Source: Escherichia phage vB_EcoM_G2133. Taken from it: a stretch of DNA of 64,000 nt. Made by a program: the position numbers and the translations under genes. The stretch lies in sequence record MK327928.1. One strand, given 5' to 3'. The notes under the pieces were generated by a model, which worked only from the letters and a program-made list of their open reading frames with translations, searched no databases and was not told where the DNA came from. Shown one piece after another: positions 25,961 through 36,045 of this stretch. Each line of letters starts with the position of its first letter. Within the stretch, counting starts at the first letter, position 1.

Positions 25961-25990
25961 ACTATAACACAACACGAGGGACTTGTAAAC
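25961..25990 (-). promoter_or_regulatory. T4 early-type promoter (-35 GTTTAC, 18-nt spacer, -10 TATAGT), copy 1 of 53-bp cassette 25938..25990
   Basis: -35 box overlaps alt-paralog stop codon; 51 of 53 nt identical with 41127..41179. Confidence 0.5.
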
Positions 25991-28047
25991 TACATTTTGA
26001 ACTTTTTAGACATTCCGTTGATGTTAACCAAAGAAGCCAAGATTTGAGAAACTTCGTTTTCCTCTTCTTTTGATTCTTCTACAAGGAATTGATTAAATCC
26101 AGCCATTGGACGAACTTCACCAGTTTCCATTAGATGGTCGCCATCATATACCGATTCCTCTAATTGTTCAGAAGGAGGAACGATTGTACCTTCTATTAGA
26201 TACTTGTTATAAGCAGTTTCTTTCATAAAGTACGTACTTACTTTATTAATCTTCAGTAAAATTCCGCGCGGTAGAATAACTTCAGCTTCTGATGGAAATC
26301 CTGATAAATGACCTGGAACGATAACTTTGATTCGCTCAGCTCCTTTAATTACCATACCCACGCTAGTTTCAGCATCTTCATTAGCATATGTAGAATGACT
26401 ACCCATATGCATCAAATCTTCTGCATCAACGGAACCTTCTCCTTCACCAGAAAATACTGCGCCGGAATCATCTAGAGCCATATAGTTTTTACCATGCTCA
26501 CCGAAGATATTTGGTTTAAGCGATGTGGATACGAAGTTCTTGAAATAGAACATTTTATTTTCAATGTTATGACGCAAAGTTTTAAAGGTAACTTCTTGCC
26601 CACGATAAAGAGTAGTTCCTGGAGGAAGAACAGAACCTTTAGCAAATGCAGAATCCAACGTCTCGATGTGTTTAATAGCTCGTTCCATATATTCTTCACG
26701 GGTAGAATCAGGTTTACCTAAAAGGAACGAGTTCATTTCAACATATGAATCTGCACAATAATCTTCAATTACATCAGATTCAGCTTGAGTTAATCCTTTT
26801 GGAGTTACTTCGGTGCTTGCGTATTCATATGCCTGAGCGGCAGATTCATTAATCAATTTATAAATGCCATTCATTACAAATTGAATAATAGCTGTCTTTT
26901 CATCTGGCGTAGCTTTAGAACCTTTAACCAAATCATTGATAATTTTCTTAATAACATCAAAGCTATTAGAAATATTAATGTCAGCAAGATCGCTTAAAAT
27001 TTTATCAGTTTTATAATCAAAGAATTCTTTATTCTTTAAATATTCTTGAGAACCTTGATATGTTATATCGCTCTGCAACTTGATAGATGGATCACGTAAA
27101 CGTGCATGGGCTAATGCAATATGATTTCGGAAGTTTTCTAGTTCGTAATCGCTAGATTTAAAACGAGAAGCACTTCTCATACCACCAATAGCTCCTTTGC
27201 TGAAGTTTGAACCAATCTGAATAACGCCAGAGTTCATTGGTCCTTCTGCTTTATACACCGGAACTTTAAATTCAAACTCTTGATATTTCTTAGCAGCGAA
27301 GCTATCACCCTGAAGTGAAGCATCGACAGTAGAATATTGAGCTTGTGCTGCTAATCGACGACTAATTTTAGTTTTCTGAATAACAGCTTGATCAGTGCGC
27401 TTATCATTTTCTAAAGCAATAGAAGCAGCAACAGCGACAGCTTTAGGAACAGCATTACCTGTTTTAACGTCTACATAAACATCACCAACCTTTGATTCAA
27501 CTTTTGTGAATAACTCAGTTGAAATAGGAGGTACACCTGGAATGTCTTCTAAATTGGCATTTTTACGGTAAACCATAATATATGCATATTTCTTATCAAA
27601 GTCCCAGATTTCCTTTAAAAGAACATATCGACCTGCTCCTTTAGTACGTACTAAACGGTCAGCAATAACTTGCATTTGACGAGCAGCGCCATTTGTTTTA
27701 CTCTTTAGTACGCGAAATAAGCATGCATCAATTTTATACTGTTTCATTGTTTGAAGAGCAGTATCAAAAACAGCATTAATGACGCCAATTGGATTTCCAC
27801 CCAAGTTTTTAAGCTTAACTAACGATAATTTCTCGTTGACACCTATCATTACGATATGCATCATTTTATCGCCTGGCTTAACGTTTTTATTCGTATCACC
27901 GCCAGAGGTGTATGTACAAAATCTAAATCCAGGAAGCACGCTTTCTTCACCGGCTTGAATAGCAAAAATTTGTGGTATTTTATGCTTAGGATTTAAGTTA
28001 ACAACCGGCGCCGAAGCGCCGTCAAATAATTCTGTAATAAGTTCCAT
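25990..28047 (-). CDS. Alt-like ADP-ribosyltransferase paralog (full length)
   Basis: 685 aa; N-terminal ~190 aa highly similar to adjacent alt; ART motifs Y-R482-GQ, S507-T-S, E587-A-E589; start 3 nt after alt stop. Confidence 0.85.
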   Translation of the reverse strand: MELITELFDGASAPVVNLNPKHKIPQIFAIQAGEESVLPGFRFCTYTSGGDTNKNVKPGDKMMHIVMIGVNEKLSLVKLKNLGGNPIGVINAVFDTALQTMKQYKIDACLFRVLKSKTNGAARQMQVIADRLVRTKGAGRYVLLKEIWDFDKKYAYIMVYRKNANLEDIPGVPPISTELFTKVESKVGDVYVDVKTGNAVPKAVAVAASIALENDKRTDQAVIQKTKISRRLAAQAQYSTVDASLQGDSFAAKKYQEFEFKVPVYKAEGPMNSGVIQIGSNFSKGAIGGMRSASRFKSSDYELENFRNHIALAHARLRDPSIKLQSDITYQGSQEYLKNKEFFDYKTDKILSDLADINISNSFDVIKKIINDLVKGSKATPDEKTAIIQFVMNGIYKLINESAAQAYEYASTEVTPKGLTQAESDVIEDYCADSYVEMNSFLLGKPDSTREEYMERAIKHIETLDSAFAKGSVLPPGTTLYRGQEVTFKTLRHNIENKMFYFKNFVSTSLKPNIFGEHGKNYMALDDSGAVFSGEGEGSVDAEDLMHMGSHSTYANEDAETSVGMVIKGAERIKVIVPGHLSGFPSEAEVILPRGILLKINKVSTYFMKETAYNKYLIEGTIVPPSEQLEESVYDGDHLMETGEVRPMAGFNQFLVEESKEEENEVSQILASLVNINGMSKKFKM

Positions 28048-28050
28048 GAT

Positions 28051-30144
28051 TTATCCTTGAACGAACTTGTAAGGCATGTTTGTAATATCTATGCAAGACG
28101 CAATAATTCCAAGAGATGATTCTACTTTCTGTTTAACGTTTGATGAAACAAATGATGCAAAGTCAACTCTGTCTTCTATTTCAATATCACCTGTCATTGC
28201 AACCAATTCACCAGTTTCCATTAAATGGTCTCCATCATAGATTACCGATTCGGTGAGCTCTTCCGTGGTCATAACTTCAGCTTGAATGAGTTTTGTATTA
28301 TTAGATGTTGTTCCGTCATTATTAGAAGCATCAGTTATTTTATTAACTTTGACCATCAATCCACGCGGTAGAATAACTTCAGCTTCTGTTGCTATTCCGA
28401 GACTTCCTGGATATACAACATTAACTTTATGAGCTCCATCAATTGCCCATCCTATTTGAACTTTAACGTATTCAGGATTTTCTTTATACGCTCTTATTTC
28501 GTTTGGATTAATAGTTATTCCTTCTTCATTTTTATCAACTGTTAATTCATTGCGAGCTTCTGGTTCTAAAAGACCAATACCAGCATGTGTAATTCCAAAA
28601 CGTCCAAAAATGATAGGAGTTAAAGAAGTAGATACAAAATTTCTGAAGTAGAACACTTTATTTTTAACTAACGCTTCATATATAGGAGCAGTCATACTTT
28701 GAGCACGATAAACTGTAATGCCTTCTGGTATACGGTCACCATTTTCAAAAGCTGAATCTAAGTTATTTATAGCAGATTCAATTTCTTTTTCACTCATTAC
28801 ATCATATCGTTCTGGATTGTAACGACCTAAAAGAAGATTATTGATGTCAGTATATCCTGAACCGCAATATTCTCTAATGCCACGCTTTTGTGATGGAGTA
28901 TATTTAGAACCATCGCGGGCAATAGTAATATCAATCATTGGACCAGCACCAATTCCAGAAAAACTGTAAATCATTCGTTTGAGGAATTTAGTTTTTGCTG
29001 CGTTCCAGGAATTTTTAGTTATTTCTTCCCAGACTTCATCTGGTTGTCCTTTACGATTTTTATTATGATTAGCAAGCCATTTATCTTTATAATCTTCAAA
29101 GAATTGATTTACAGCTGCTGCGTATTTCTCTAAACATTTTATTGAAGTAGTTGGTTCATTTTTAATTGCATTAAAAATTACTTCTTTAATTTTTTCTGAA
29201 ACTTCACCGACTTGACTCATTGGAAAGAATTTATAATCATAGTGAAGTTCATCTGCCGTTCCTTCAGCAATAATTTTTGCTGCCTTTGTTTTAGAAGCTA
29301 ATGAATTAATTCCAATTTTCATTTCTTCTGCTTCGGGAATTAAAGGAGCGGTAGCAGGTTTATTGAAATTAGCTGCGGTAGATTCATACTTCTGGAATAA
29401 TTCACTTTCAAATCTAGAAGATTCCAACGACTGACTTTGCGCAATTGCTCTACGTGAAATTTTAACTTTAACGATTACCGCTTGGTCAGAACGTTTATCA
29501 TTTTCTTGCGCAATAGATGCTGCAATTGCCTCATTTTTAGTTACTTGGGCTCCAGTATCTTTATTGATATAAACATCACCGACTTTCGATTCAACTTTAG
29601 TAAAGAGCTCGGTACTAATTTCCGGAACTCCTGGAATGTCTTCTAATGATACATTTTTGCGATGTATAAGAATATATGCATACTTTTTATCATAATCCCA
29701 GAGTTCCTTAAGAAGGACGTATCTGCCACCTGAACGACTACGGATAAGTCTATCAGCAATAAGTTGAATTTGACGAGCTTGACCAGCAGTTTTAGACTTA
29801 AGAATACGGAGCATACATGCATCAATTTTATACTGACGCATCGTCTGCATCGCAACAGTAAAAACTGAATTGATGTAATTAATTGGGCTTGGACCGAGAC
29901 CCTTTAATTTAGCAATTGAACCTTTAGCAGTTAATGTAAAAGGAACAATATGCATCATTTTATCGCCCATTTTTAAATCGCGATTAGTATCACCTCCAGA
30001 TGTATAGGTACATAAACGAAAACCTGGTTGTTCAATTGCGTCATCAACATGAACTGAAAAAATTTGCGGTATTTTCTTCTTTGGATTTAAGTTTGTAATC
30101 GGAAGAGTAGTATCTTCGTCAAATAATTCTGTAATGAGTTCCAT
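28051..30144 (-). CDS. alt: Alt ADP-ribosyltransferase (capsid-packaged)
   Basis: track ORF 28051..30147 begins MM, second Met used; MELITELFDEDTTLPITNL...; R-S-E ART motifs (YRAQ, STS, EAEVILPRG). Confidence 0.88.
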   Translation of the reverse strand: MELITELFDEDTTLPITNLNPKKKIPQIFSVHVDDAIEQPGFRLCTYTSGGDTNRDLKMGDKMMHIVPFTLTAKGSIAKLKGLGPSPINYINSVFTVAMQTMRQYKIDACMLRILKSKTAGQARQIQLIADRLIRSRSGGRYVLLKELWDYDKKYAYILIHRKNVSLEDIPGVPEISTELFTKVESKVGDVYINKDTGAQVTKNEAIAASIAQENDKRSDQAVIVKVKISRRAIAQSQSLESSRFESELFQKYESTAANFNKPATAPLIPEAEEMKIGINSLASKTKAAKIIAEGTADELHYDYKFFPMSQVGEVSEKIKEVIFNAIKNEPTTSIKCLEKYAAAVNQFFEDYKDKWLANHNKNRKGQPDEVWEEITKNSWNAAKTKFLKRMIYSFSGIGAGPMIDITIARDGSKYTPSQKRGIREYCGSGYTDINNLLLGRYNPERYDVMSEKEIESAINNLDSAFENGDRIPEGITVYRAQSMTAPIYEALVKNKVFYFRNFVSTSLTPIIFGRFGITHAGIGLLEPEARNELTVDKNEEGITINPNEIRAYKENPEYVKVQIGWAIDGAHKVNVVYPGSLGIATEAEVILPRGLMVKVNKITDASNNDGTTSNNTKLIQAEVMTTEELTESVIYDGDHLMETGELVAMTGDIEIEDRVDFASFVSSNVKQKVESSLGIIASCIDITNMPYKFVQG

Positions 30145-30167
30145 CATATCCTCTCTAGTGTTTATTC

Positions 30168-30175
30168 TATTTATA
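30168..30175 (-). promoter_or_regulatory. late promoter box TATAAATA for alt
   Basis: reverse complement of TATTTATA about 20 nt upstream of alt ATG, after hairpin 30181..30198. Confidence 0.55.
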
Positions 30176-30196
30176 AAATTAAAGGCCCGAAGGCCT

Positions 30197-30385
30197 TTAA
30201 TAATCTATTGGTAAGAGAGTACGATATATTTCAAACTTTGGACCTTTTTCATAGGTATCAAATGTTTCTGTGAATTTATTATAAGCATATGCATCTATAA
30301 ATTCAATCATAATTTGTGATACAGAAGTAGAAACATCTCCACCTTCTTTTTGAGCCACGACAATTGTTTCTAAGTAAGCTTTCAT
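30197..30385 (-). CDS. hypothetical small protein coupled to DNA ligase
   Basis: 62 aa; ATG overlaps gene 30 stop (ATGA); followed by hairpin AAAGGCC-cgaa-GGCCTTT. Confidence 0.5.
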   Translation of the reverse strand: MKAYLETIVVAQKEGGDVSTSVSQIMIEFIDAYAYNKFTETFDTYEKGPKFEIYRTLLPIDY

Positions 30386-31845
30386 AGACCAGTTACCTCA
30401 TGAAAATCACCAAATACATCCTCGAATGTATTAGCTTTAGTTTTATCTTCACGCAAACGAATCGCAATCGGAAGAAATAATTTAACGTAATCAGTGCGGC
30501 CATCAGATTTTAACCAACCGTTGCATTCGCACTCTAGAATTTTTCCAATATAATAATTTTGGTTTTCCATAATGCGAGTACGGTCAAGTTCATGCGATTT
30601 TACACCGGCTTTATCTTTTAAGCCTGAACCAGCATTTACTTTAATTTTTCCACACTCTGATTCAAGAATGAAACCACCTGCTTTAGTAGGGTCTTTACGG
30701 TGAGGATAAATTCCTACAATTTTTAAATCAACATCAATTACTTCTTTAAATTTATAAAGATTTTTTGAACGAGCATTTTCCCATAATCCATCGATATTTT
30801 TGAGAATAATACCTTCAAGACCTTGGTCAATATACTTTTTGTAAATTACCTTAGCTTCATCTAGGTTATTTACTACTTGGTTTTCAATTAAAATTACTTT
30901 ATCATAGCCTGATGTCATTTGTTCTAGTTTAGAAAAACGTACATCATATTTTAAACGAAATGCTGGAAGACCATATATTTCTACTAATGGAACATAATCC
31001 CAGACCTGAAACTTCATGCATTGTGCTTCTTTTTCAGAAATGGTTCCCTTTAAAGATTTATTGGCGATGCCATTAGATGCAGTACGTGATTCAGCTACTT
31101 CGGCGAATTCTTTAGCTTTACTAATTTCAGGATAAGCATCAAAAAGAAAATCTAGGCCTTCTGGTTCCTTTTCAACTTGCTCATGGTATACCAATTCGCC
31201 ATCAATTAACACACCTTCTGGATGAATCTGGCGGGCTTCAGCAGTCATTTTGATTAACTCTTCCTTAAGAAGATCTAATCCTAGATATTCATTGCCAGCT
31301 CGTGATAAAAGACGAACATCATCTAATTCATCACCTCTGACTTCGGCAAAGCACCGAGCTCCATCAGCTTTTAACTGGGCAAAGGCTGGAAATTTGATAT
31401 TCTTATTAATGCCTTTTTCATCATAAGAACTTGCAAGCATTTGAGGTTGTTCAGGAATTAAACCTGGCCAAACTTTGTTCGCAATAGATACTGAAGCGCC
31501 ACATTCAAGGTCTCGCATCATCACTCGACGCAAAACTTCAACATCATCTTTTTTACCATCGGTGATGTATCCAATTAATTCCTCAATCGCCGCATTTCCA
31601 GTCAATTTCCGAGTAGCTAACGTGAATTCAATGAAGTCAAGCATATCGGTAAGAGTCAACATTCCAAAACTCTGGGTAGCAATACCAGGTTTAGGCCATT
31701 TCTTGATATAATACTGTAACCCACGAGAATAAGTCAGACGATATACTCGTTTAAGCAATTCATTATCTTTATTCTTTTCAAGAATTGCTTGCTTCTGCTT
31801 AGTTGAACCAATAGATGCTATTTCGTTCAGAATTTTAAGAATCAT
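30382..31845 (-). CDS. 30: ATP-dependent DNA ligase
   Basis: 487 aa as in T4 DNA ligase; adenylation motif KADGAR. Confidence 0.95.
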   Translation of the reverse strand: MILKILNEIASIGSTKQKQAILEKNKDNELLKRVYRLTYSRGLQYYIKKWPKPGIATQSFGMLTLTDMLDFIEFTLATRKLTGNAAIEELIGYITDGKKDDVEVLRRVMMRDLECGASVSIANKVWPGLIPEQPQMLASSYDEKGINKNIKFPAFAQLKADGARCFAEVRGDELDDVRLLSRAGNEYLGLDLLKEELIKMTAEARQIHPEGVLIDGELVYHEQVEKEPEGLDFLFDAYPEISKAKEFAEVAESRTASNGIANKSLKGTISEKEAQCMKFQVWDYVPLVEIYGLPAFRLKYDVRFSKLEQMTSGYDKVILIENQVVNNLDEAKVIYKKYIDQGLEGIILKNIDGLWENARSKNLYKFKEVIDVDLKIVGIYPHRKDPTKAGGFILESECGKIKVNAGSGLKDKAGVKSHELDRTRIMENQNYYIGKILECECNGWLKSDGRTDYVKLFLPIAIRLREDKTKANTFEDVFGDFHEVTGL

Positions 31846-32111
31846 TGTTCATCCTTTAGAGTTTGGTTTACAGCTCTATTATAAATCAATTCATCATTAA
31901 GCTCAGTCAAAGACCTGTGGTACGTTGTTCTAACTTTATTTCCTTGCATCCAGTGCTTGACGTAAATGAAACCTTGCTCTACACATTTTTTAAAAATTCG
32001 TTCGTCTTTTTGAGCTCGGAATTCTGGATTGCATCTAAAAAATTGATTTACGTGACCGTAATCACGTGTAGTATTACCTTCATTTTCATAAATAGTGTGA
32101 ACGACAAACAT
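31842..32111 (-). CDS. hypothetical protein (position 30.1)
   Basis: 89 aa; first of nine ORFs between 30 and rIII, matching T4 30.1-30.9 count. Confidence 0.6.
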   Translation of the reverse strand: MFVVHTIYENEGNTTRDYGHVNQFFRCNPEFRAQKDERIFKKCVEQGFIYVKHWMQGNKVRTTYHRSLTELNDELIYNRAVNQTLKDEQ

Positions 32112-32965
32112 TAGAATGCTCCTTGGAAAATATTATCACCACTACCACTAGTAAGTCTATTAAAATACCCTGCATCGCCAGGCTTAATATAACTCCACGT
32201 ATGGAATGGATGCATCTGGTGTGAGTGCGTATAATATGGATGATATGGATTATAAGGATTAAATCCAGGAGTTCTCCAGGTAGTGTTCCAAGGAAAAGAA
32301 TCGTTTTTGATCATCTTCTCGATTGCATCTTTTATAGCTTTTTCACTATCAAAACTTTCTTTATTTTCCTTCGGTGAAAAAAGCTTATTCTCTACATCAT
32401 TCCATGTATAAACTCGCTGAGCAGTTTTTGGAATACTGTCACGCTCCCCTCGAGCCATCCAATAAACAGGAACACTTAATATTTCACTCGCATGATCGCA
32501 GTGGTGAGCGAGATCGTCGATATAACAAATTACGTTATATTTCTCTTTTGCCTTTTTGAACAACTCTTCTTTTGAAGAATCATGACCACACATCAATACT
32601 TCTGAGAAGGCACCAGGAAAAAGAGCATTCAAATTAAATTGACGATTCAACAAAGCATCAATAGAATCACCCAATGCTGTAACAGCTACAAAATTATAAT
32701 CTTCTTTTAATTTGTTAATTACACACAGGGCATCTTTATATGGAGACAAATAGCGAATAAAATCTGAACGATTATACTTTTCGATTAATTTAACACCGAG
32801 TTCTTCATCGCAATTAAAGAGCTTACCAGGAGAAATAAATTTTTCGTCCTGAATCATTTTTAAAATATGTTCTAATGGAAGATTATATTTTTGGGCAAAA
32901 TAAGGAAGACCTGATTGCCAGCTTAAACATACTCCATCAATATCAGTTAAAATAGTAGGCTTCAT
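32111..32965 (-). CDS. HAD-superfamily phosphatase/nucleotidase-like protein with aromatic-His-rich C-terminal tail (position 30.2)
   Basis: 284 aa; motif I LTDIDGV, motif IV YIDDL; C-terminus NPYNPYHPYYTHSHQMHPFHTW. Confidence 0.6.
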   Translation of the reverse strand: MKPTILTDIDGVCLSWQSGLPYFAQKYNLPLEHILKMIQDEKFISPGKLFNCDEELGVKLIEKYNRSDFIRYLSPYKDALCVINKLKEDYNFVAVTALGDSIDALLNRQFNLNALFPGAFSEVLMCGHDSSKEELFKKAKEKYNVICYIDDLAHHCDHASEILSVPVYWMARGERDSIPKTAQRVYTWNDVENKLFSPKENKESFDSEKAIKDAIEKMIKNDSFPWNTTWRTPGFNPYNPYHPYYTHSHQMHPFHTWSYIKPGDAGYFNRLTSGSGDNIFQGAF

Positions 32966-33420
32966 AGAGAGTCTCTTAATAGGTTTAACACATCAATAAA
33001 TTCAGCTTCGGTTAGTATTGTATCATCTTTTGTTAGACCACTAGCCATGCTGTGCTTCAAAACTTTTCCTTTCGAGGCTTGTAATGCATCGCGAAAGCCC
33101 CTATTTTGGATCGCTGCTTCAAAATATGCATTTGTGTATAATTCTTTCCACGCTGGGGAGTATCTTGAAAATGGAACTCCAAGCCAGAAGAGGGTCCCAC
33201 GGTCCTGAGCTCTAGCATAAGACCTTCCAGCTTGTTGGGCGGCAAGCCCAGATAACCCAAATATACGACGTTGTTGTTCAACGTTTTTCACCTTGCATCC
33301 TTGGAGGAATCCTTCAAGACCTCCAAATTGAATACCATCCATAACGAAAGGCCAATGGGCGAAATTACTTAATGCGCATGATGGCCACCTAAAATTGCTT
33401 CTAATCTCTAACTCAGACAT
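32962..33420 (-). CDS. NADAR/YbiA-like domain protein (position 30.3)
   Basis: track start 33426 is TTG; ATG at 33420 gives 152 aa; LSNFAHWPFVMDGIQFGGLEGFLQGCK and AAQQAGRSYARAQDRGTLFW resemble YbiA motifs by eye. Confidence 0.6.
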   Translation of the reverse strand: MSELEIRSNFRWPSCALSNFAHWPFVMDGIQFGGLEGFLQGCKVKNVEQQRRIFGLSGLAAQQAGRSYARAQDRGTLFWLGVPFSRYSPAWKELYTNAYFEAAIQNRGFRDALQASKGKVLKHSMASGLTKDDTILTEAEFIDVLNLLRDSL

Positions 33421-33619
33421 TTTCAATGCTTATAATTTCAACATCAGCCCAATGACCATAGCAAGGAAGACGAAATTCAACTGGCCAGTTAGGGTCCTTT
33501 TCTAATATAATAGACTCAACTTGTGGTTCTTCGTGTTCATCAGTATACGGATTTTTATCTGTTACTTTATATGTGACCTTAATGTACTGAATTCCAAAAA
33601 TCTTATTAATTATATTCAT
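33413..33619 (-). CDS. hypothetical protein (position 30.4)
   Basis: 68 aa, ATG start, stop overlaps next gene start. Confidence 0.55.
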   Translation of the reverse strand: MNIINKIFGIQYIKVTYKVTDKNPYTDEHEEPQVESIILEKDPNWPVEFRLPCYGHWADVEIISIENV

Positions 33620-33813
33620 ACTAATTCCTTTAATCCGTAGATAGGAGATAATTCATCGCCCATATGAAGGTCTTCATTTCCATCTACCCAAGAAACAATA
33701 TAAGCCTCTTTTACTTGAACGTCTCCCAATTTAAATGCGGGTAAAACCTTAGAAATTAATCCAGGTATACCAACTCCCTTTAATTCAACAGTTTGGCCTA
33801 AAAAGAATTTCAT
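33616..33813 (-). CDS. hypothetical protein (position 30.5)
   Basis: 65 aa, ATGA overlap with upstream gene. Confidence 0.55.
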   Translation of the reverse strand: MKFFLGQTVELKGVGIPGLISKVLPAFKLGDVQVKEAYIVSWVDGNEDLHMGDELSPIYGLKELV

Positions 33814-34100
33814 TAGAACCTCATCTGAAAACCATGTGATTTAACATTACCGCCATTAATATCAGAACTATTAATTTCACGTGCAATTGAGGGGTCAATG
33901 TCAATTTCGCCATTAAGTTTAATGATAGACAAAGTATCACGCCCATTTACTGTGCGGAACTCTAAAGGACAAACCACATCAACGTAGTTTTTAATCGATT
34001 CACTGGTAGGCTGCAAATGAGCAGGAAGGTCTTTAGGCGCCTTTGAGAAAACTACTTCACAGAAGTTTTTACGAATATCAAAATAAGTGGTCATAAACAT
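33813..34100 (-). CDS. hypothetical protein (position 30.6)
   Basis: track ORF to 34151 starts at TTG and runs through a hairpin; ATG 34100 (MFMTTY...) preceded by GAGG. Confidence 0.55.
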   Translation of the reverse strand: MFMTTYFDIRKNFCEVVFSKAPKDLPAHLQPTSESIKNYVDVVCPLEFRTVNGRDTLSIIKLNGEIDIDPSIAREINSSDINGGNVKSHGFQMRF

Positions 34101-34117
34101 AGTATTTTCCTCAATAA

Positions 34118-34131
34118 GGGGCCGAAGCCCC
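34118..34131 (-). promoter_or_regulatory. stem-loop GGGGCUUCGGCCCC (transcript sense) between positions 30.7 and 30.6
   Basis: exact 14-mer; followed by TTATTGAGG and ATG 34100. Confidence 0.55.
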
Positions 34132-34140
34132 TGTTTTATT

Positions 34141-34506
34141 TTAAATATCAAATTCGTTAAGAACTACATCAAAGATTGCTTCAAGATGCTCAGGTTTAGC
34201 TCTGTTACTCAAAATATGACGAATCCAAGTTTTAACCAGAAGCTTACGATTGACGCCATTCCAGCAAGGATGAGTCCCTAAATCACGTTGACGAAAATCA
34301 TCATCCAGAGCGATTTTAAAGTTGGAACCTTCCATTGTGATTGAAACCGTGATGCCATTTTCAAATCGCATATAAACGTAATTAGGAGTCATATACTGTT
34401 CAATTTCGCATACTGATCCATTTTGATGTTTCCAAAGGCAAATAGTATCAATAGAACCTGCAATACCATTAGAAACATATTTACGTTCAAAGTTGATGTA
34501 GTTCAT
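34141..34506 (-). CDS. hypothetical protein (position 30.7)
   Basis: 121 aa, ATG start. Confidence 0.6.
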   Translation of the reverse strand: MNYINFERKYVSNGIAGSIDTICLWKHQNGSVCEIEQYMTPNYVYMRFENGITVSITMEGSNFKIALDDDFRQRDLGTHPCWNGVNRKLLVKTWIRHILSNRAKPEHLEAIFDVVLNEFDI

Positions 34507-34543
34507 TTTTGTTCTCCGAGATGTTTAATTGCGGTACAGGTAT

Positions 34544-34572
34544 ATAATATCATATCCTGTACCAAAGTAAAC
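34544..34572 (-). promoter_or_regulatory. T4 early-type promoter (-35 GTTTAC, 17 nt, -10 TATTAT)
   Basis: consensus hexamers about 40 nt upstream of ATG 34506; overlaps a GTACAGG/CCTGTAC inverted repeat. Confidence 0.45.
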
Positions 34573-34574
34573 AA

Positions 34575-34907
34575 TTATTTTACTACTTTCCAATGCTGCA
34601 TGTCAAGTTTACCAACTTTTTTCATCTTCTCAATTAAGCGTTCGGCACGTTGGCGAGCTGTAACATAATGCCATTCGCCTAATTCATTTTGTTCAATTTT
34701 TCCAACGATTACTGTATTCAATTCATAAATCCAACCAGTAAAGAAATTATGAACTTGAATTGTAAAGGTGAAATCTGTTCCCATACCTTCTGTTGTTTCT
34801 ACTTCAATAATATCACCTTCAACTGCCATTAAGAACCACATAGTTTCATCATATTTACCATTGAAGCATTTAGTTTTAACTGCAGCGTTCAGATTAATCG
34901 TTTTCAT
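34575..34907 (-). CDS. hypothetical protein (position 30.8)
   Basis: 110 aa, ATG start. Confidence 0.6.
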   Translation of the reverse strand: MKTINLNAAVKTKCFNGKYDETMWFLMAVEGDIIEVETTEGMGTDFTFTIQVHNFFTGWIYELNTVIVGKIEQNELGEWHYVTARQRAERLIEKMKKVGKLDMQHWKVVK

Positions 34908-34984
34908 TTTATTCTCCTTTGTTTGTGTAAGATAATACTATCACAAAGGAACCATACTGTAAACAACTTTGTGCAATCTTTGGA

Positions 34985-35012
34985 AAATAAAAAAGGACTC
35001 CCGAAGGAGTCC
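34985..35012 (-). terminator. rho-independent terminator after position 30.9
   Basis: GGACTCC-cgaa-GGAGTCC 7-bp stem followed by T-run on minus strand. Confidence 0.7.
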
Positions 35013-35017
35013 TCAAC

Positions 35018-35236
35018 TTATGCTTTCTGCTTACCAAAACGAGAAGCATCATCTCGAAGAACCGCACGTGCTCGGCGCATGATCTTCTCAACAGTTTGAT
35101 TGATACGAGAGTTCGACCCACGCTTGTAGCCAGCGCGTTTAGAATCACCAACTTTCTTTTCAACTGCTTTCTTTGCTTTAGCTTGTTTTGCCATTATAAA
35201 TTCTCTTTTAAATGAAAATGCAGGACTTATTGGCAT
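35018..35236 (-). CDS. hypothetical small basic protein (position 30.9)
   Basis: 72 aa Lys/Arg-rich; alternative start Met15 at 35194. Confidence 0.5.
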   Translation of the reverse strand: MPISPAFSFKREFIMAKQAKAKKAVEKKVGDSKRAGYKRGSNSRINQTVEKIMRRARAVLRDDASRFGKQKA

Positions 35237-35313
35237 TGCCTGCGCAAGCCCTCAAGGGGTACTTAGGTTTTGAATATTTACCGACAGGATAACCATAAAC
35301 CTCGTCAACATAA

Positions 35314-35562
35314 TTACTTCAATGTTACCACAAAGTGACGAACTGCTTTTCGTGCAGCAGAAGCCAGAGGCTTAGCATATTTAAGTTCATCTTTTTCCTG
35401 AAGCTCAGCAGCTAATGCAGTTTGAGCAGGATTTAGATGTTTGAAATAACGCAGGATTTCAAGAGCTTCGGCTTCAACATCAATAGATGCGCCATAGTTT
35501 TCGTGACCATTATTCCATGCGTTTCGTTGCAGTTCAAGAGCGTGTTGTAATTGTTTAATCAT
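35314..35562 (-). CDS. rIII: rIII lysis inhibition accessory protein
   Basis: 82 aa as in T4 rIII; position between 30.x block and gene 31. Confidence 0.75.
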   Translation of the reverse strand: MIKQLQHALELQRNAWNNGHENYGASIDVEAEALEILRYFKHLNPAQTALAAELQEKDELKYAKPLASAARKAVRHFVVTLK

Positions 35563-35701
35563 TTAAAAATTCTCGTTAGAGATTAAAACTCGGTAGTCAC
35601 GTTCTTCTGAATTTCATCTTCTTTCGACAGATCTCTCAGTTGTAGACTACCACATAGAATTGTTCGGTTAACTTATTATTCCGACACCCAATTCATATTA
35701 T

Positions 35702-35709
35702 TATTTATA
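35702..35709 (-). promoter_or_regulatory. late promoter box TATAAATA downstream of gene 31
   Basis: reverse complement of TATTTATA abutting gene 31 stop; could serve rIII. Confidence 0.4.
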
Positions 35710-36045
35710 TCACTTATAAAGACACGGAATAGCTTTATAGTGACAAGTAACGAATTTTTGTTTAATTTCTTTTGGCTGCTTAAGACCCAGAGCTACAAAA
35801 GGATGCGGAACATTTCGAATTTGACCAACTGGAAGAGAAGTCAAATCGCCAACTTCGCAGAAACCTTCAGGAACATCAGGACCGACAGAGTGAACTACAC
35901 ACAGTTCAGGAACTTCACCTTGGACACGTTTACCAATAATAAGTCCTGATTCTGTAACTTCTTCATCACCGGCTTGTGCAGGTTCAGAAACTAAAATAAC
36001 ATATTCACCGACAGCACGAATTGGTAGCTGTTGTACTTCAGACAT
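35710..36045 (-). CDS. 31: co-chaperonin for GroEL (GroES-like)
   Basis: 111 aa as in T4 gp31; [30 protein letters not shown]. Confidence 0.93.

What the first reader, a model, noticed from the sequence alone, without database searches (positions are those of the whole stretch)
32111..33420. NADAR/YbiA-like ORF beside a HAD-type phosphatase ORF, about 2 kb from the two ADP-ribosyltransferase genes
ORF 32962..33420 carries motifs that by eye match the YbiA/NADAR family (LSNFAHWPFVMDGIQFGGLEGFLQGCK; GRSYARAQDRGTLFW). Members of that family are known N-glycosidases, and some remove ADP-ribose from guanine bases. Its upstream neighbour 32111..32965 has HAD motif I (LTDIDGV) and motif IV (YIDDL) like 5'(3')-nucleotidases. 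An eraser-type domain encoded near two ADP-ribosyl writers (alt, alt paralog) suggests either control of phage-made modifications or a counter-defence against host DarT-like ADP-ribosylating toxins. This is inference from motifs only.
Basis: inference. Interest (0 to 1): 0.55.

Follow-up and report, generated by a model that had tools for sequence, protein, structure and literature searches.

The report
Known anti-DarT eraser gene adfN
The small gene is the T4-type phage gene 30.3, already shown in 2024-25 to strip toxic ADP-ribose marks that the bacterial DarT1 toxin puts on phage DNA, and its neighbour is an uncharacterised phosphatase that published data show is not needed for that job.

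Summary
On the minus strand, 32962..33420 encodes a 152-aa protein and 32111..32965 a 284-aa protein, inside a T4-type block 30.4-30.3-30.2-30.1-ligase-alt.

The 284-aa protein (gp30.2) is a capped HAD phosphatase with all four catalytic motifs. It is closest to 5'(3')-deoxyribonucleotidases and has a disordered tail.

Proximity to alt reflects T4 synteny and not a writer-eraser pairing: only 8 of 80 diverse NADAR loci have an Alt-type gene nearby.

I found a large bacterial family of gp30.3-type NADAR fused to an NT5C nucleotidase. That suggested a 30.3-30.2 partnership. However, a published T4 transposon screen shows 30.2 is dispensable on DarTG1 (log2FC -0.12, against -7.25 for 30.3).

The parts
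32962..33420 (-). adfN (T4 gene 30.3): 152-aa phage-type NADAR, a DNA/RNA guanine ADP-ribosylglycohydrolase
33313..33315 (-). codon GAA = Glu36, catalytic residue of AdfN
   Evidence: Read from the sequence. It is invariant in alignments A1, A3 and A4. It aligns with the Glu of YbiA's SEHYFQAQK motif. The E36A mutant of T4 AdfN is impaired.
33292..33294 (-). codon AAG = Lys43, catalytic/phosphate-binding residue of AdfN
   Evidence: Read from the sequence. It is invariant or nearly so. The K43A mutant of T4 AdfN is impaired.
33052..33054 (-). codon CAC = His123 in the last strand (LKHS), the hallmark of the phage NADAR subfamily; it replaces Glu (YbiA) or Asp (DarG1)
   Evidence: Read from the sequence. 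It is invariant in A1 and nearly invariant in A3 and A4. It lies in strand 122-125 of the model. The literature describes this substitution.
32962..33009 (-). the last 15 codons plus stop of adfN, lying within the C-terminal helix that the frameshifted, DarTG1-sensitive RB69 allele lacks; intact here
   Evidence: The model has a helix at residues 140-153 in 154-aa numbering. The sequence is identical to T4 over this stretch. The RB69 truncation and its phenotype are described.
32111..32965 (-). T4 gene 30.2: 284-aa HAD-superfamily phosphatase, NT5C-like, function not demonstrated
32381..32965 (-). gp30.2 residues 1-195: HAD Rossmannoid core with an inserted helical C1 cap (about residues 16-86)
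32114..32293 (-). gp30.2 residues 225-284: disordered tail rich in Pro, Tyr, His, Asn and Trp, variable in length and sequence among homologs
   Evidence: pLDDT is 40-56. Variability is visible in alignment A2. The differences from T4 cluster here.
33413..33619 (-). T4 gene 30.4 (68 aa): immediately upstream, its stop overlaps the adfN start by 8 nt; insertions in it reduce fitness on DarTG1 in published data
   Evidence: Searches give the ORF and junction. PHROG 2042 scores E=4e-35. HIDEN-SEQ gives log2FC -1.79, padj 0.014. It is found only in close T-even relatives and always next to adfN.
31842..32111 (-). T4 gene 30.1 (DUF3045), between 30.2 and the ligase gene
   Evidence: PF11243 E=2.9e-64. 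The junction is shown.
30382..31845 (-). gene 30, ATP-dependent DNA ligase: the conserved downstream neighbour of 30.2
   Evidence: PF01068 E=1.6e-32. A ligase gene lies directly downstream on the same strand in 71 of 77 gp30.2-type loci.
25990..30147 (-). alt (28051..30147) and an intact alt paralog (25990..28047): context only, not functionally tied to adfN by any evidence found
   Evidence: PF03496 hits. An Alt-type gene lies near only 8 of 80 NADAR loci. alt insertions are neutral on DarTG1.

Best explanation
The window is a T4-type (Tequatrovirus) genome.

adfN. ORF 32962..33420 (minus strand) is adfN, T4 gene 30.3. It is a minimal, single-domain NADAR enzyme. It hydrolyses the N-glycosidic bond between ADP-ribose and the N2 of guanine in DNA (and RNA). 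This erases the marks that the host toxin DarT1 of the DarTG1 defence system places on phage DNA, so replication can proceed. It acts as an 'orphan antitoxin' with no toxin partner. Its catalysis uses Glu36, Lys43 and the subfamily-specific His123.

gp30.2. ORF 32111..32965 is T4 gene 30.2. It is translationally coupled to adfN through an ATGA overlap. It is a Mg-dependent HAD phosphatase with a helical cap, so it most likely acts on a small phosphomonoester, probably a (deoxy)nucleoside monophosphate. It also has a disordered variable tail. It is not required for the anti-DarTG1 function.

What is shown and what is inferred. Shown here: identity to T4, fold, residues, gene order and distribution. 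Shown by others for the 98%-identical T4 protein: enzymatic activity and the DarTG1 phenotype. Inferred: that this allele behaves the same, and that gp30.2 is a nucleotidase.
For: Identity and integrity:
- The closest genome is 99.3% identical over the locus.
- AdfN is 149/152 identical to T4 gp30.3 and full length.
- PF08010 scores E=1.7e-69.

Fold:
- The AF2 model has pLDDT 82.

Sequence bridge to NADAR:
- The family profile hits YbiA at E=9e-4, with the E..Q..K motif aligned.
- 12 of 68 family members also hit PF08719.

Residues: E36, K43 and H123 are invariant or nearly so.

Published function:
- Deleting T4 adfN abolishes plating on DarTG1. Ectopic adfN rescues RB69. The purified protein removes ADPr from DNA. 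E36A and K43A are impaired (PMC11825919).
- In vitro it removes G-ADPr but not T-ADPr (PMC11125620; PMC12945103).
- Tn-seq gives log2FC -7.25, padj 0 on DarTG1.

gp30.2:
- Motifs I-IV are conserved.
- The AF2 core has pLDDT >90.
- The profile hits cdN (2jao) at E=0.017.
- 5 of 35 homologs hit PF06941 NT5C.
Against: - No activity or phenotype was measured for this particular allele. It has three substitutions relative to T4 (Q22H, K107R, I125M).
- The window protein itself gives no PF08719 hit at E<=0.1, no NCBIfam hit and no PADLOC hit.
- T4 AdfN does not protect uninfected E. coli from DarT1 and only partly rescues non-T-even phages. An unidentified factor or context therefore contributes.
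Confidence: 0.9

Rival explanations
1. Writer-eraser pairing: the NADAR reverses or tunes ADP-ribosylation made by the phage's own transferases (Alt, the Alt paralog, ModA/ModB), which is why it sits about 2 kb from them.
For: The genes are co-located in the window. [quoted passage not shown]
Against: - Only 8 of 80 diverse gp30.3-type NADAR loci have an Alt-type gene within 10 kb, always inside the same ligase synteny block.
- In many T4-like phages the NADAR lies about 60-70 kb from that block.
- All NADARs tested, including T4's, act on guanine-base ADPr in nucleic acids. Alt targets protein arginine (my own knowledge).
- adfN is dispensable without DarTG1, and alt insertions do not change fitness on DarTG1.
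Confidence: 0.04
2. gp30.2 is the functional partner of AdfN, the unidentified T-even 'potentiating factor'. It would process a phosphorylated product or substrate of the NADAR reaction.
For: - The two genes have a 4-nt ATGA overlap.
- A large family fuses a gp30.3-type NADAR to a C-terminal NT5C domain in the same order. All of the 120 best hits (of 2047) carry PF08010 plus PF06941, on bacterial contigs up to 2.6 Mb.
- That fusion gene sits next to SIR2 and ADP-ribosylglycohydrolase genes.
- The two genes have nearly identical genus-level distributions in phage genomes.
- There is a precedent: ARG enzymes coupled to HAD 5'-nucleotidases (PMC9503650).
Against: - The T4 transposon screen on DarTG1 gives 30.2 (71 sites) log2FC -0.12, p=0.61, against -7.25 for 30.3.
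- 41 of 77 gp30.2 loci have no NADAR within 6 kb.
- 67 of 80 NADAR loci have no gp30.2-type gene within 10 kb.
- gp30.2 is tied instead to the ligase gene, in 71 of 77 loci.
- The fused NT5C domain is only distantly related to gp30.2 (hhalign E=1e-4 over 64 columns; weak hmmsearch hits).
Confidence: 0.1
3. gp30.2 works with the DNA ligase on DNA ends, as a 3'-phosphatase that heals nicks before ligation. It would not act on free nucleotides.
Against: - gp30.2 has a roughly 70-residue helical cap inserted after motif I. Caps of this kind typically enclose small substrates, and DNA-end phosphatases of the PNKP type lack one (my own knowledge).
- The best superpositions are capped small-molecule enzymes.
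- T4 already encodes PseT for this role.
- 30.2 is non-essential whereas the ligase is essential.
Confidence: 0.08
4. The main natural substrates of AdfN-type NADARs are something other than DarT1-modified DNA. They could be RNA guanine-ADPr, ADP-ribosylated guanine mononucleotides, or small ADPr-derived immune signals. DarTG1 would then be only one of several targets.
For: - The family is very wide: 1450 representative clusters and 1510 phage genomes.
- It is fused to unrelated domains such as GDSL lipase, LRR and NT5C.
- Iyer et al. predict low-molecular-weight ADPr substrates for phage NADARs.
- NADARs also remove RNA G-ADPr, and guanine nucleosides and mononucleotides are known ART substrates.
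- AdfN is inefficient outside T-even infection.
Against: The only demonstrated phenotype is on DarTG1, and it is very strong. No other substrate has been shown for the phage subfamily. The T4 enzyme is not listed among the enzymes that remove cytidine-ADPr.
Confidence: 0.15

Closest known systems
T4 AdfN (gp30.3), anti-DarT factor NADAR (Johannesman et al., Nat Commun 2025, PMC11825919)
   Same: It is 149/152 residues identical and the same length. It has the same catalytic E36, K43 and H123 and the same C-terminal helix. The gene order 30.4-30.3-30.2-30.1-30 and the overlapping junctions are the same.
   Different: There are three substitutions (Q22H, K107R, I125M), none at catalytic positions. 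The allele in this window is untested.
DarG1, the NADAR antitoxin of DarTG1 (for example Geobacter lovleyi, PDB 8bat; E. coli C7)
   Different: - DarG1 has an N-terminal extension and an Asp where AdfN has His123.
- DarG1 is encoded next to its toxin DarT1 and protects uninfected cells.
- AdfN is an orphan, consists only of the core domain, and does not rescue DarT1 toxicity without T-even infection.
- No DarT or PADLOC match is found here.
E. coli YbiA and Phytophthora NADAR (PDB 2b3w, 8bau), Pfam PF08719
   Different: - Identity is only 16-19%.
- The window protein does not reach PF08719 at E<=0.1.
- They have Glu in the last strand in place of His.
- YbiA also acts on riboflavin intermediates.
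Cytosolic and mitochondrial 5'(3')-deoxyribonucleotidases (cdN/mdN, Pfam NT5C PF06941; PDB 2jao, 2i7d, 6g2n) and 3bwv
   Same: - gp30.2 has the same four HAD motifs.
- It has a similar helical cap.
- An aromatic residue follows motif I (W16, aligned with the Phe of DMDGVLADF).
- Foldseek gives rmsd 4.4-4.8 and target TM-score 0.63-0.70.
   Different: - The window protein has no PF06941 hit; only 5 of 35 homologs do.
- gp30.2 carries an extra helix and a roughly 60-residue disordered tail.
- Its activity is unknown.
Bacteroidales NADAR-NT5C fusion proteins (for example P0134, P0359), found here
   Same: The N-terminal domain is a gp30.3-type NADAR with the His variant. A HAD nucleotidase domain follows, in the same order as T4 genes 30.3 and 30.2. 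The motif I regions are similar: VDMDNVLVDFQSGL against TDIDGVCLSWQSGL.
   Different: - It is one polypeptide and is bacterial and chromosomal.
- It lies in SIR2 / ADP-ribosylglycohydrolase or transposase/TIR neighbourhoods.
- The fused HAD is canonical NT5C and only distantly related to gp30.2.

Membership tests
NADAR superfamily | [quoted passage not shown] | tested here: met
NADAR superfamily | Catalytic Glu and Lys in the N-terminal motif (S/G-x-E-x-x-x-Q-x-x-K) | tested here: met
   E36 and K43 (codons 33313-33315 and 33292-33294) are invariant or nearly so across 10, 68 and 39 relatives. They align with the YbiA motif.
NADAR superfamily | Sequence match to the Pfam NADAR model PF08719 | tested here: inconclusive
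   The window protein has no hit at E<=0.1. Of the PF08010 family members, 12 of 68 and 5 of 39 hit PF08719, but below its gathering score (best E 4.9e-6, 27.3 bits against a cut-off of 35.1). The family profile hits YbiA at E=9e-4.
NADAR superfamily | ADP-ribosyl N-glycohydrolase activity on guanine-ADPr | not testable with these tools
   Activity is published for the 98%-identical T4 protein.
Phage NADAR subfamily (gp30.3 / AdfN, Pfam PF08010) | Match to PF08010 over its full length | tested here: met
   E=1.7e-69, covering profile positions 1-138 of 138.
Phage NADAR subfamily (gp30.3 / AdfN, Pfam PF08010) | Histidine in the last beta-strand in place of the Glu/Asp of other NADARs | tested here: met
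   H123 sits in LKHS (codon 33052-33054), within strand 122-125 of the model, and is conserved.
Phage NADAR subfamily (gp30.3 / AdfN, Pfam PF08010) | Intact C-terminal helix (lost in the inactive RB69 allele) | tested here: met
   The protein is the full 152 aa and its C-terminus is identical to T4's. The model has a helix at residues 140-153.
DarTG1 toxin-antitoxin system (as a cognate antitoxin) | Encoded next to a DarT1 toxin gene | tested here: not met
   The neighbours are 30.4 and 30.2. PADLOC gives no match for either protein. It is an orphan, as published for T4.
HAD superfamily phosphatases (gp30.2) | Four catalytic motifs: I DxD, II Thr/Ser, III Lys, IV DD | tested here: met
   D8, D10, K132, D150 and D151 are invariant and T96 is at least 90% conserved in 35 homologs down to 34% identity.
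HAD superfamily phosphatases (gp30.2) | Rossmannoid HAD fold with a cap domain | tested here: met
NT5C 5'(3')-deoxyribonucleotidase family (Pfam PF06941) (gp30.2) | Match to PF06941 | tested here: inconclusive
NT5C 5'(3')-deoxyribonucleotidase family (Pfam PF06941) (gp30.2) | dNMP/NMP phosphatase activity | not testable with these tools
   No literature on gp30.2 was found. The gene is non-essential in T4 under the four conditions read.

The most novel reading that the evidence does not exclude
gp30.2 is an NT5C-like nucleotidase that acts in the same ADP-ribose / guanine-nucleotide pathway as AdfN. It might dephosphorylate ADP-ribosylated (d)GMP released when modified DNA is degraded, or clear phosphorylated ADPr breakdown products. 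The large bacterial family in which a gp30.3-type NADAR is fused to an NT5C domain, next to SIR2 and ADP-ribosylglycohydrolase genes, points this way. The pair would matter against guanine-targeting ADP-ribosylating systems other than the laboratory DarTG1, which would explain why 30.2 is dispensable in that screen.

A second open reading concerns the Tevenvirinae-restricted 68-aa gp30.4. It is the only other significant DarTG1 hit, and it could be the unidentified helper that AdfN needs.
Probability: 0.15. Interest if true: 0.5.

Novelty: already known. Interest (0 to 1): 0.2.

Why it matters
The finding shows that motif reading alone recovered a real counter-defence gene. However, the gene (adfN) was identified genetically and biochemically in 2024-25 and confirmed by a genome-wide screen, so nothing new follows for the NADAR.

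Three questions remain open. They are modest but testable.
- What does the widely conserved HAD phosphatase gp30.2 do? It is present in about 1400 phage genomes and almost always sits just upstream of the ligase gene.
- Does the recurrent NADAR-NT5C fusion in gut Bacteroidales reveal a two-step ADP-ribose/nucleotide clean-up pathway?
- What supplies the T-even-specific help that AdfN needs?

RefSeq still labels both genes 'hypothetical protein', so annotation could be updated.

Tried and rejected
(1) Single-sequence searches gave no NADAR hit and only noise-level HAD hits. This covers Pfam, NCBIfam and PDB phmmer for both proteins. Profiles and structure were needed.

(2) PADLOC defence models matched neither protein.

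(3) The eraser-next-to-writer idea was rejected by comparative context and by published data.

(4) gp30.2 as AdfN's obligatory partner was pursued through several lines: adjacency statistics, genome-level distribution, domain fusions, context of the fusions and a fused-domain profile. It was rejected for DarTG1 by the HIDEN-SEQ table.

(5) The promoter/terminator scan of 30000-36000 gave counts no higher than shuffled controls (22 against 19.6; 5 against 3.8). It was not used.

(6) A search of viral contigs for the P0134 fusion found only one partial relative. The fusion is bacterial and not viral.

(7) P0153 and P0170 were first suspected to be the NT5C fusions. They turned out to be a GDSL-lipase fusion and a membrane-anchored form.
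Full report
**What is there.** The window is a T4-type myovirus genome. The 1.9 kb around the finding is 99.3% identical to Escherichia phage vB_EcoM_G2540, and more than 80% of it is found in 495 phage records. All genes in this region run on the minus strand. In order they are:
- an intact alt paralog (25990..28047);
- alt (28051..30147);
- alt.1 (30197..30385);
- the gene 30 DNA ligase (30382..31845);
- 30.1 / DUF3045 (31842..32111);
- 30.2 (32111..32965, 284 aa);
- 30.3 (32962..33420, 152 aa);
- 30.4 (33413..33619).

The reference T4 annotation has the same genes with the same lengths and overlaps. The junctions read from the sequence are ATGTCTGA (30.4/30.3), ATGA (30.3/30.2) and TAATG (30.2/30.1). 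This is a tightly packed, translationally coupled block.

**The small ORF is a NADAR, but sequence models alone do not say so.** Pfam assigns it to PF08010 'Phage_30_3' (E=1.7e-69) and gives no PF08719 NADAR hit at E<=0.1. NCBIfam, PADLOC and a single-sequence PDB search are empty or at noise level. The link appears with profiles and structure:
- A 10-sequence profile puts E. coli YbiA first in the PDB (E=0.054), aligned over LSNF...E..Q..K.
- An exhaustive profile search finds 1450 representative clusters.
- A 68-member profile hits YbiA at E=9e-4.
- 12 of those 68 members individually reach PF08719, below its gathering score.
- Glu36, Lys43 and His123 are conserved throughout the family. I located their codons in the window.

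**It is already characterised.** T4 gene 30.3 was renamed adfN, anti-DarT factor NADAR (PMC11825919). The published results are:
- Chimeric-phage mapping pointed to 30.3.
- Deleting it from T4 or T2 abolishes plating on DarTG1.
- Ectopic expression rescues RB69, whose allele is frameshifted and lacks the last 15 residues.
- The purified protein removes ADP-ribose from DarT1-modified DNA.
- E36A and K43A are impaired.
- It does not counter DarTG2.
- In vitro work shows the T4 enzyme removes guanine-ADPr but not thymine-ADPr. That work describes 'gp30.3 proteins' as the phage NADAR subfamily with His in the last strand (PMC11125620; PMC11543638; PMC12945103).
- A T4 transposon screen finds 30.3 completely depleted on DarTG1 (log2FC -7.25, padj 0) and neutral otherwise (preprint 10.1101/2025.11.20.689424).

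The window's protein is 149/152 identical to T4's and has the same length and C-terminus. The function can be transferred with high confidence, but it was not measured for this allele.

**The large ORF is a capped HAD phosphatase.** Pfam has no model that hits it. A search found 100 homologs, nearly all in T4-like phages; a few carry automated names such as '5'(3')-deoxyribonucleotidase' or 'HAD-superfamily hydrolase'. The structural and sequence evidence is:
- In 35 diverse homologs, D8, D10, K132, D150 and D151 are invariant and T96 nearly so. This is the order and spacing of HAD motifs I-IV.
- The AlphaFold2 model is very confident for residues 1-195 (pLDDT >90). It has a helical cap inserted after the first strand, one further helix at 207-220, and a disordered tail from about residue 225.
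- Foldseek finds 102 PDB matches at E<=1e-3, all HAD enzymes. The tightest superpositions are on cytosolic and mitochondrial 5'(3')-deoxyribonucleotidases and the related 3bwv.
- The family profile hits mouse cdN at E=0.017.
- 5 of 35 homologs reach PF06941 NT5C.

Superfamily membership is therefore solid, and the DxD and DD motifs point to a Mg-dependent phosphatase. The nucleotidase subfamily is plausible but not proven. The presence of a cap argues for a small substrate and against DNA ends; this is an inference from general knowledge of HAD enzymes. I found no literature on gp30.2.

**Is the neighbourhood meaningful?** I collected 77 diverse gp30.2-type loci and 80 diverse gp30.3-type NADAR loci from IMG/VR.
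- Of the gp30.2 loci, 36 have the NADAR upstream on the same strand within 1.2 kb and 41 have none within 6 kb.
- 71 of the 77 have the ligase gene directly downstream.
- Of the NADAR loci, only 13 have a gp30.2-type gene within 10 kb and only 8 have an Alt-type gene. All of these sit inside the same NADAR-HAD-ligase-alt block.
- Several contigs carry the NADAR about 60 kb from the HAD-ligase block.
- Across GenBank phages the two genes have almost identical genus-level counts (1510 against 1438 records). This mainly shows that both are near-core genes of T4-like phages.

The 'eraser beside writers' arrangement is therefore local synteny.

**A lead that I followed and largely closed.** Among multi-domain relatives of gp30.3 I found proteins with a C-terminal NT5C domain. 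A homolog search with one of them (P0134) returned 2047 proteins. All 120 best hits (67-100% identity) carry PF08010 plus PF06941, many on long Prevotella/Bacteroidales contigs. The fusion gene lies in two contexts. One is a conserved cluster with SIR2 and an ADP-ribosylglycohydrolase. The other is a transposase/TIR/kinase island. This fits the reported coupling of ADPr hydrolases with phosphatases, including HAD 5'-nucleotidases (PMC9503650).

This is a Rosetta-stone style hint that a gp30.3-type NADAR and an NT5C-type phosphatase can act together, and AdfN is known to need an unidentified T-even factor. However, the fused domain is only distantly related to gp30.2. The published T4 transposon data then show that 30.2 insertions (71 sites) are neutral on DarTG1 (log2FC -0.12, p=0.61), on DarTG2 and in minimal medium. 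So gp30.2 is not required for the known function. A cooperative role in some other context remains possible but unsupported.

**Side observation.** The same table lists exactly two significant genes on DarTG1. The second is 30.4 (log2FC -1.79, padj 0.014). gp30.4 homologs occur only in close T-even relatives, always immediately upstream of adfN and never without it. With the 8-nt overlap, a polar effect on adfN is the simplest reading. A Tevenvirinae-restricted helper would also fit the published requirement for a T-even factor.

**Verdict.** Only the proximity rationale and the self-regulation alternative fail. The central finding is already known, so it scores low on novelty. The remaining open items are the function of gp30.2, the NADAR-NT5C fusion family and gp30.4.

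Noticed in passing
window 33413-33619 (minus strand), gene 30.4: This 68-aa ORF has a stop codon that overlaps the adfN start by 8 nt. It is the only other significant gene in the published T4 transposon screen on DarTG1 (log2FC -1.79, padj 0.014). Its homologs occur only in close T-even relatives, always directly upstream of adfN (15 of 15 loci) and never without it. It could be a polar effect, or the unidentified T-even helper of AdfN.
   Followed up: partly
loci L160-L166 (bacterial contigs); proteins P0134, P0270-P0388: There is a large family of Bacteroidales proteins that fuse a gp30.3-type, His-variant NADAR to a C-terminal NT5C 5'-nucleotidase domain. All 120 best hits of 2047 have this architecture. 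The gene is encoded next to SIR2 and an ADP-ribosylglycohydrolase (PF03747) in one context, and in a transposase/TIR/kinase island in another.
   Followed up: partly
window 32114-32293 (minus strand), gp30.2 residues 225-284: This is a disordered tail rich in Pro, Tyr, His, Asn and Trp, highly variable in length among homologs. Many homologs share a short G-[IV]-E-Y-L-x-N-x-P-T motif near the C-terminus. The window allele diverges from T4 exactly there, with DAGYFNRLTSGSG against GGIEYLYNRPTCG. It may be a docking peptide.
   Followed up: no
window 25990-28047 (minus strand): An intact 685-aa alt paralog with an ART domain (PF03496, E=6e-20) sits where reference T4 has only the short remnants alt.-1 and alt.-2. 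The T4 record annotates those as an old partial duplication of alt.
   Followed up: no
window 30382-32965; loci L002-L078: The gp30.2-type HAD gene is almost always directly upstream of the DNA ligase gene on the same strand (71 of 77 loci, usually less than 300 nt apart). This is a much tighter association than with the NADAR (36 of 77).
   Followed up: partly
pairs of loci from the same contig: L019/L094, L066/L095, L026/L121, L035/L130, L020/L133, L053/L138: In many T4-like phages of Klebsiella, Enterobacter, Aeromonas and others, the gp30.3-type NADAR gene is not in the ligase block. It lies about 60-70 kb away on the same genome. The gene has therefore moved, or been acquired separately, within the family.
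   Followed up: partly
window 33057-33281 (minus strand): A 74-aa ORF lies in another frame inside adfN. It corresponds to the T4 annotation 30.3' ('internal translation in a different reading frame'). I gathered no evidence for or against its expression.
   Followed up: no
proteins P0123-P0126, P0137, P0210, P0124, P0153, P0198: The wider gp30.3 family includes proteins of about 290 aa with two partial NADAR repeats in tandem, and one 480-aa protein with three matched stretches. It also includes fusions to GDSL lipase, BspA-type LRR, prolipoprotein diacylglyceryl transferase and alpha/beta hydrolase domains. PHROG 652 has a 296-position profile of which AdfN matches only positions 126-272.
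   Followed up: no
locus L153, 9503-11844: A contig outside the T4-type block carries three genes in a row on one strand: an NT5C-like ORF (E=1.8e-4 to the fused-domain profile), a gp30.3-type NADAR, and a ligase-like ORF.
   Followed up: no
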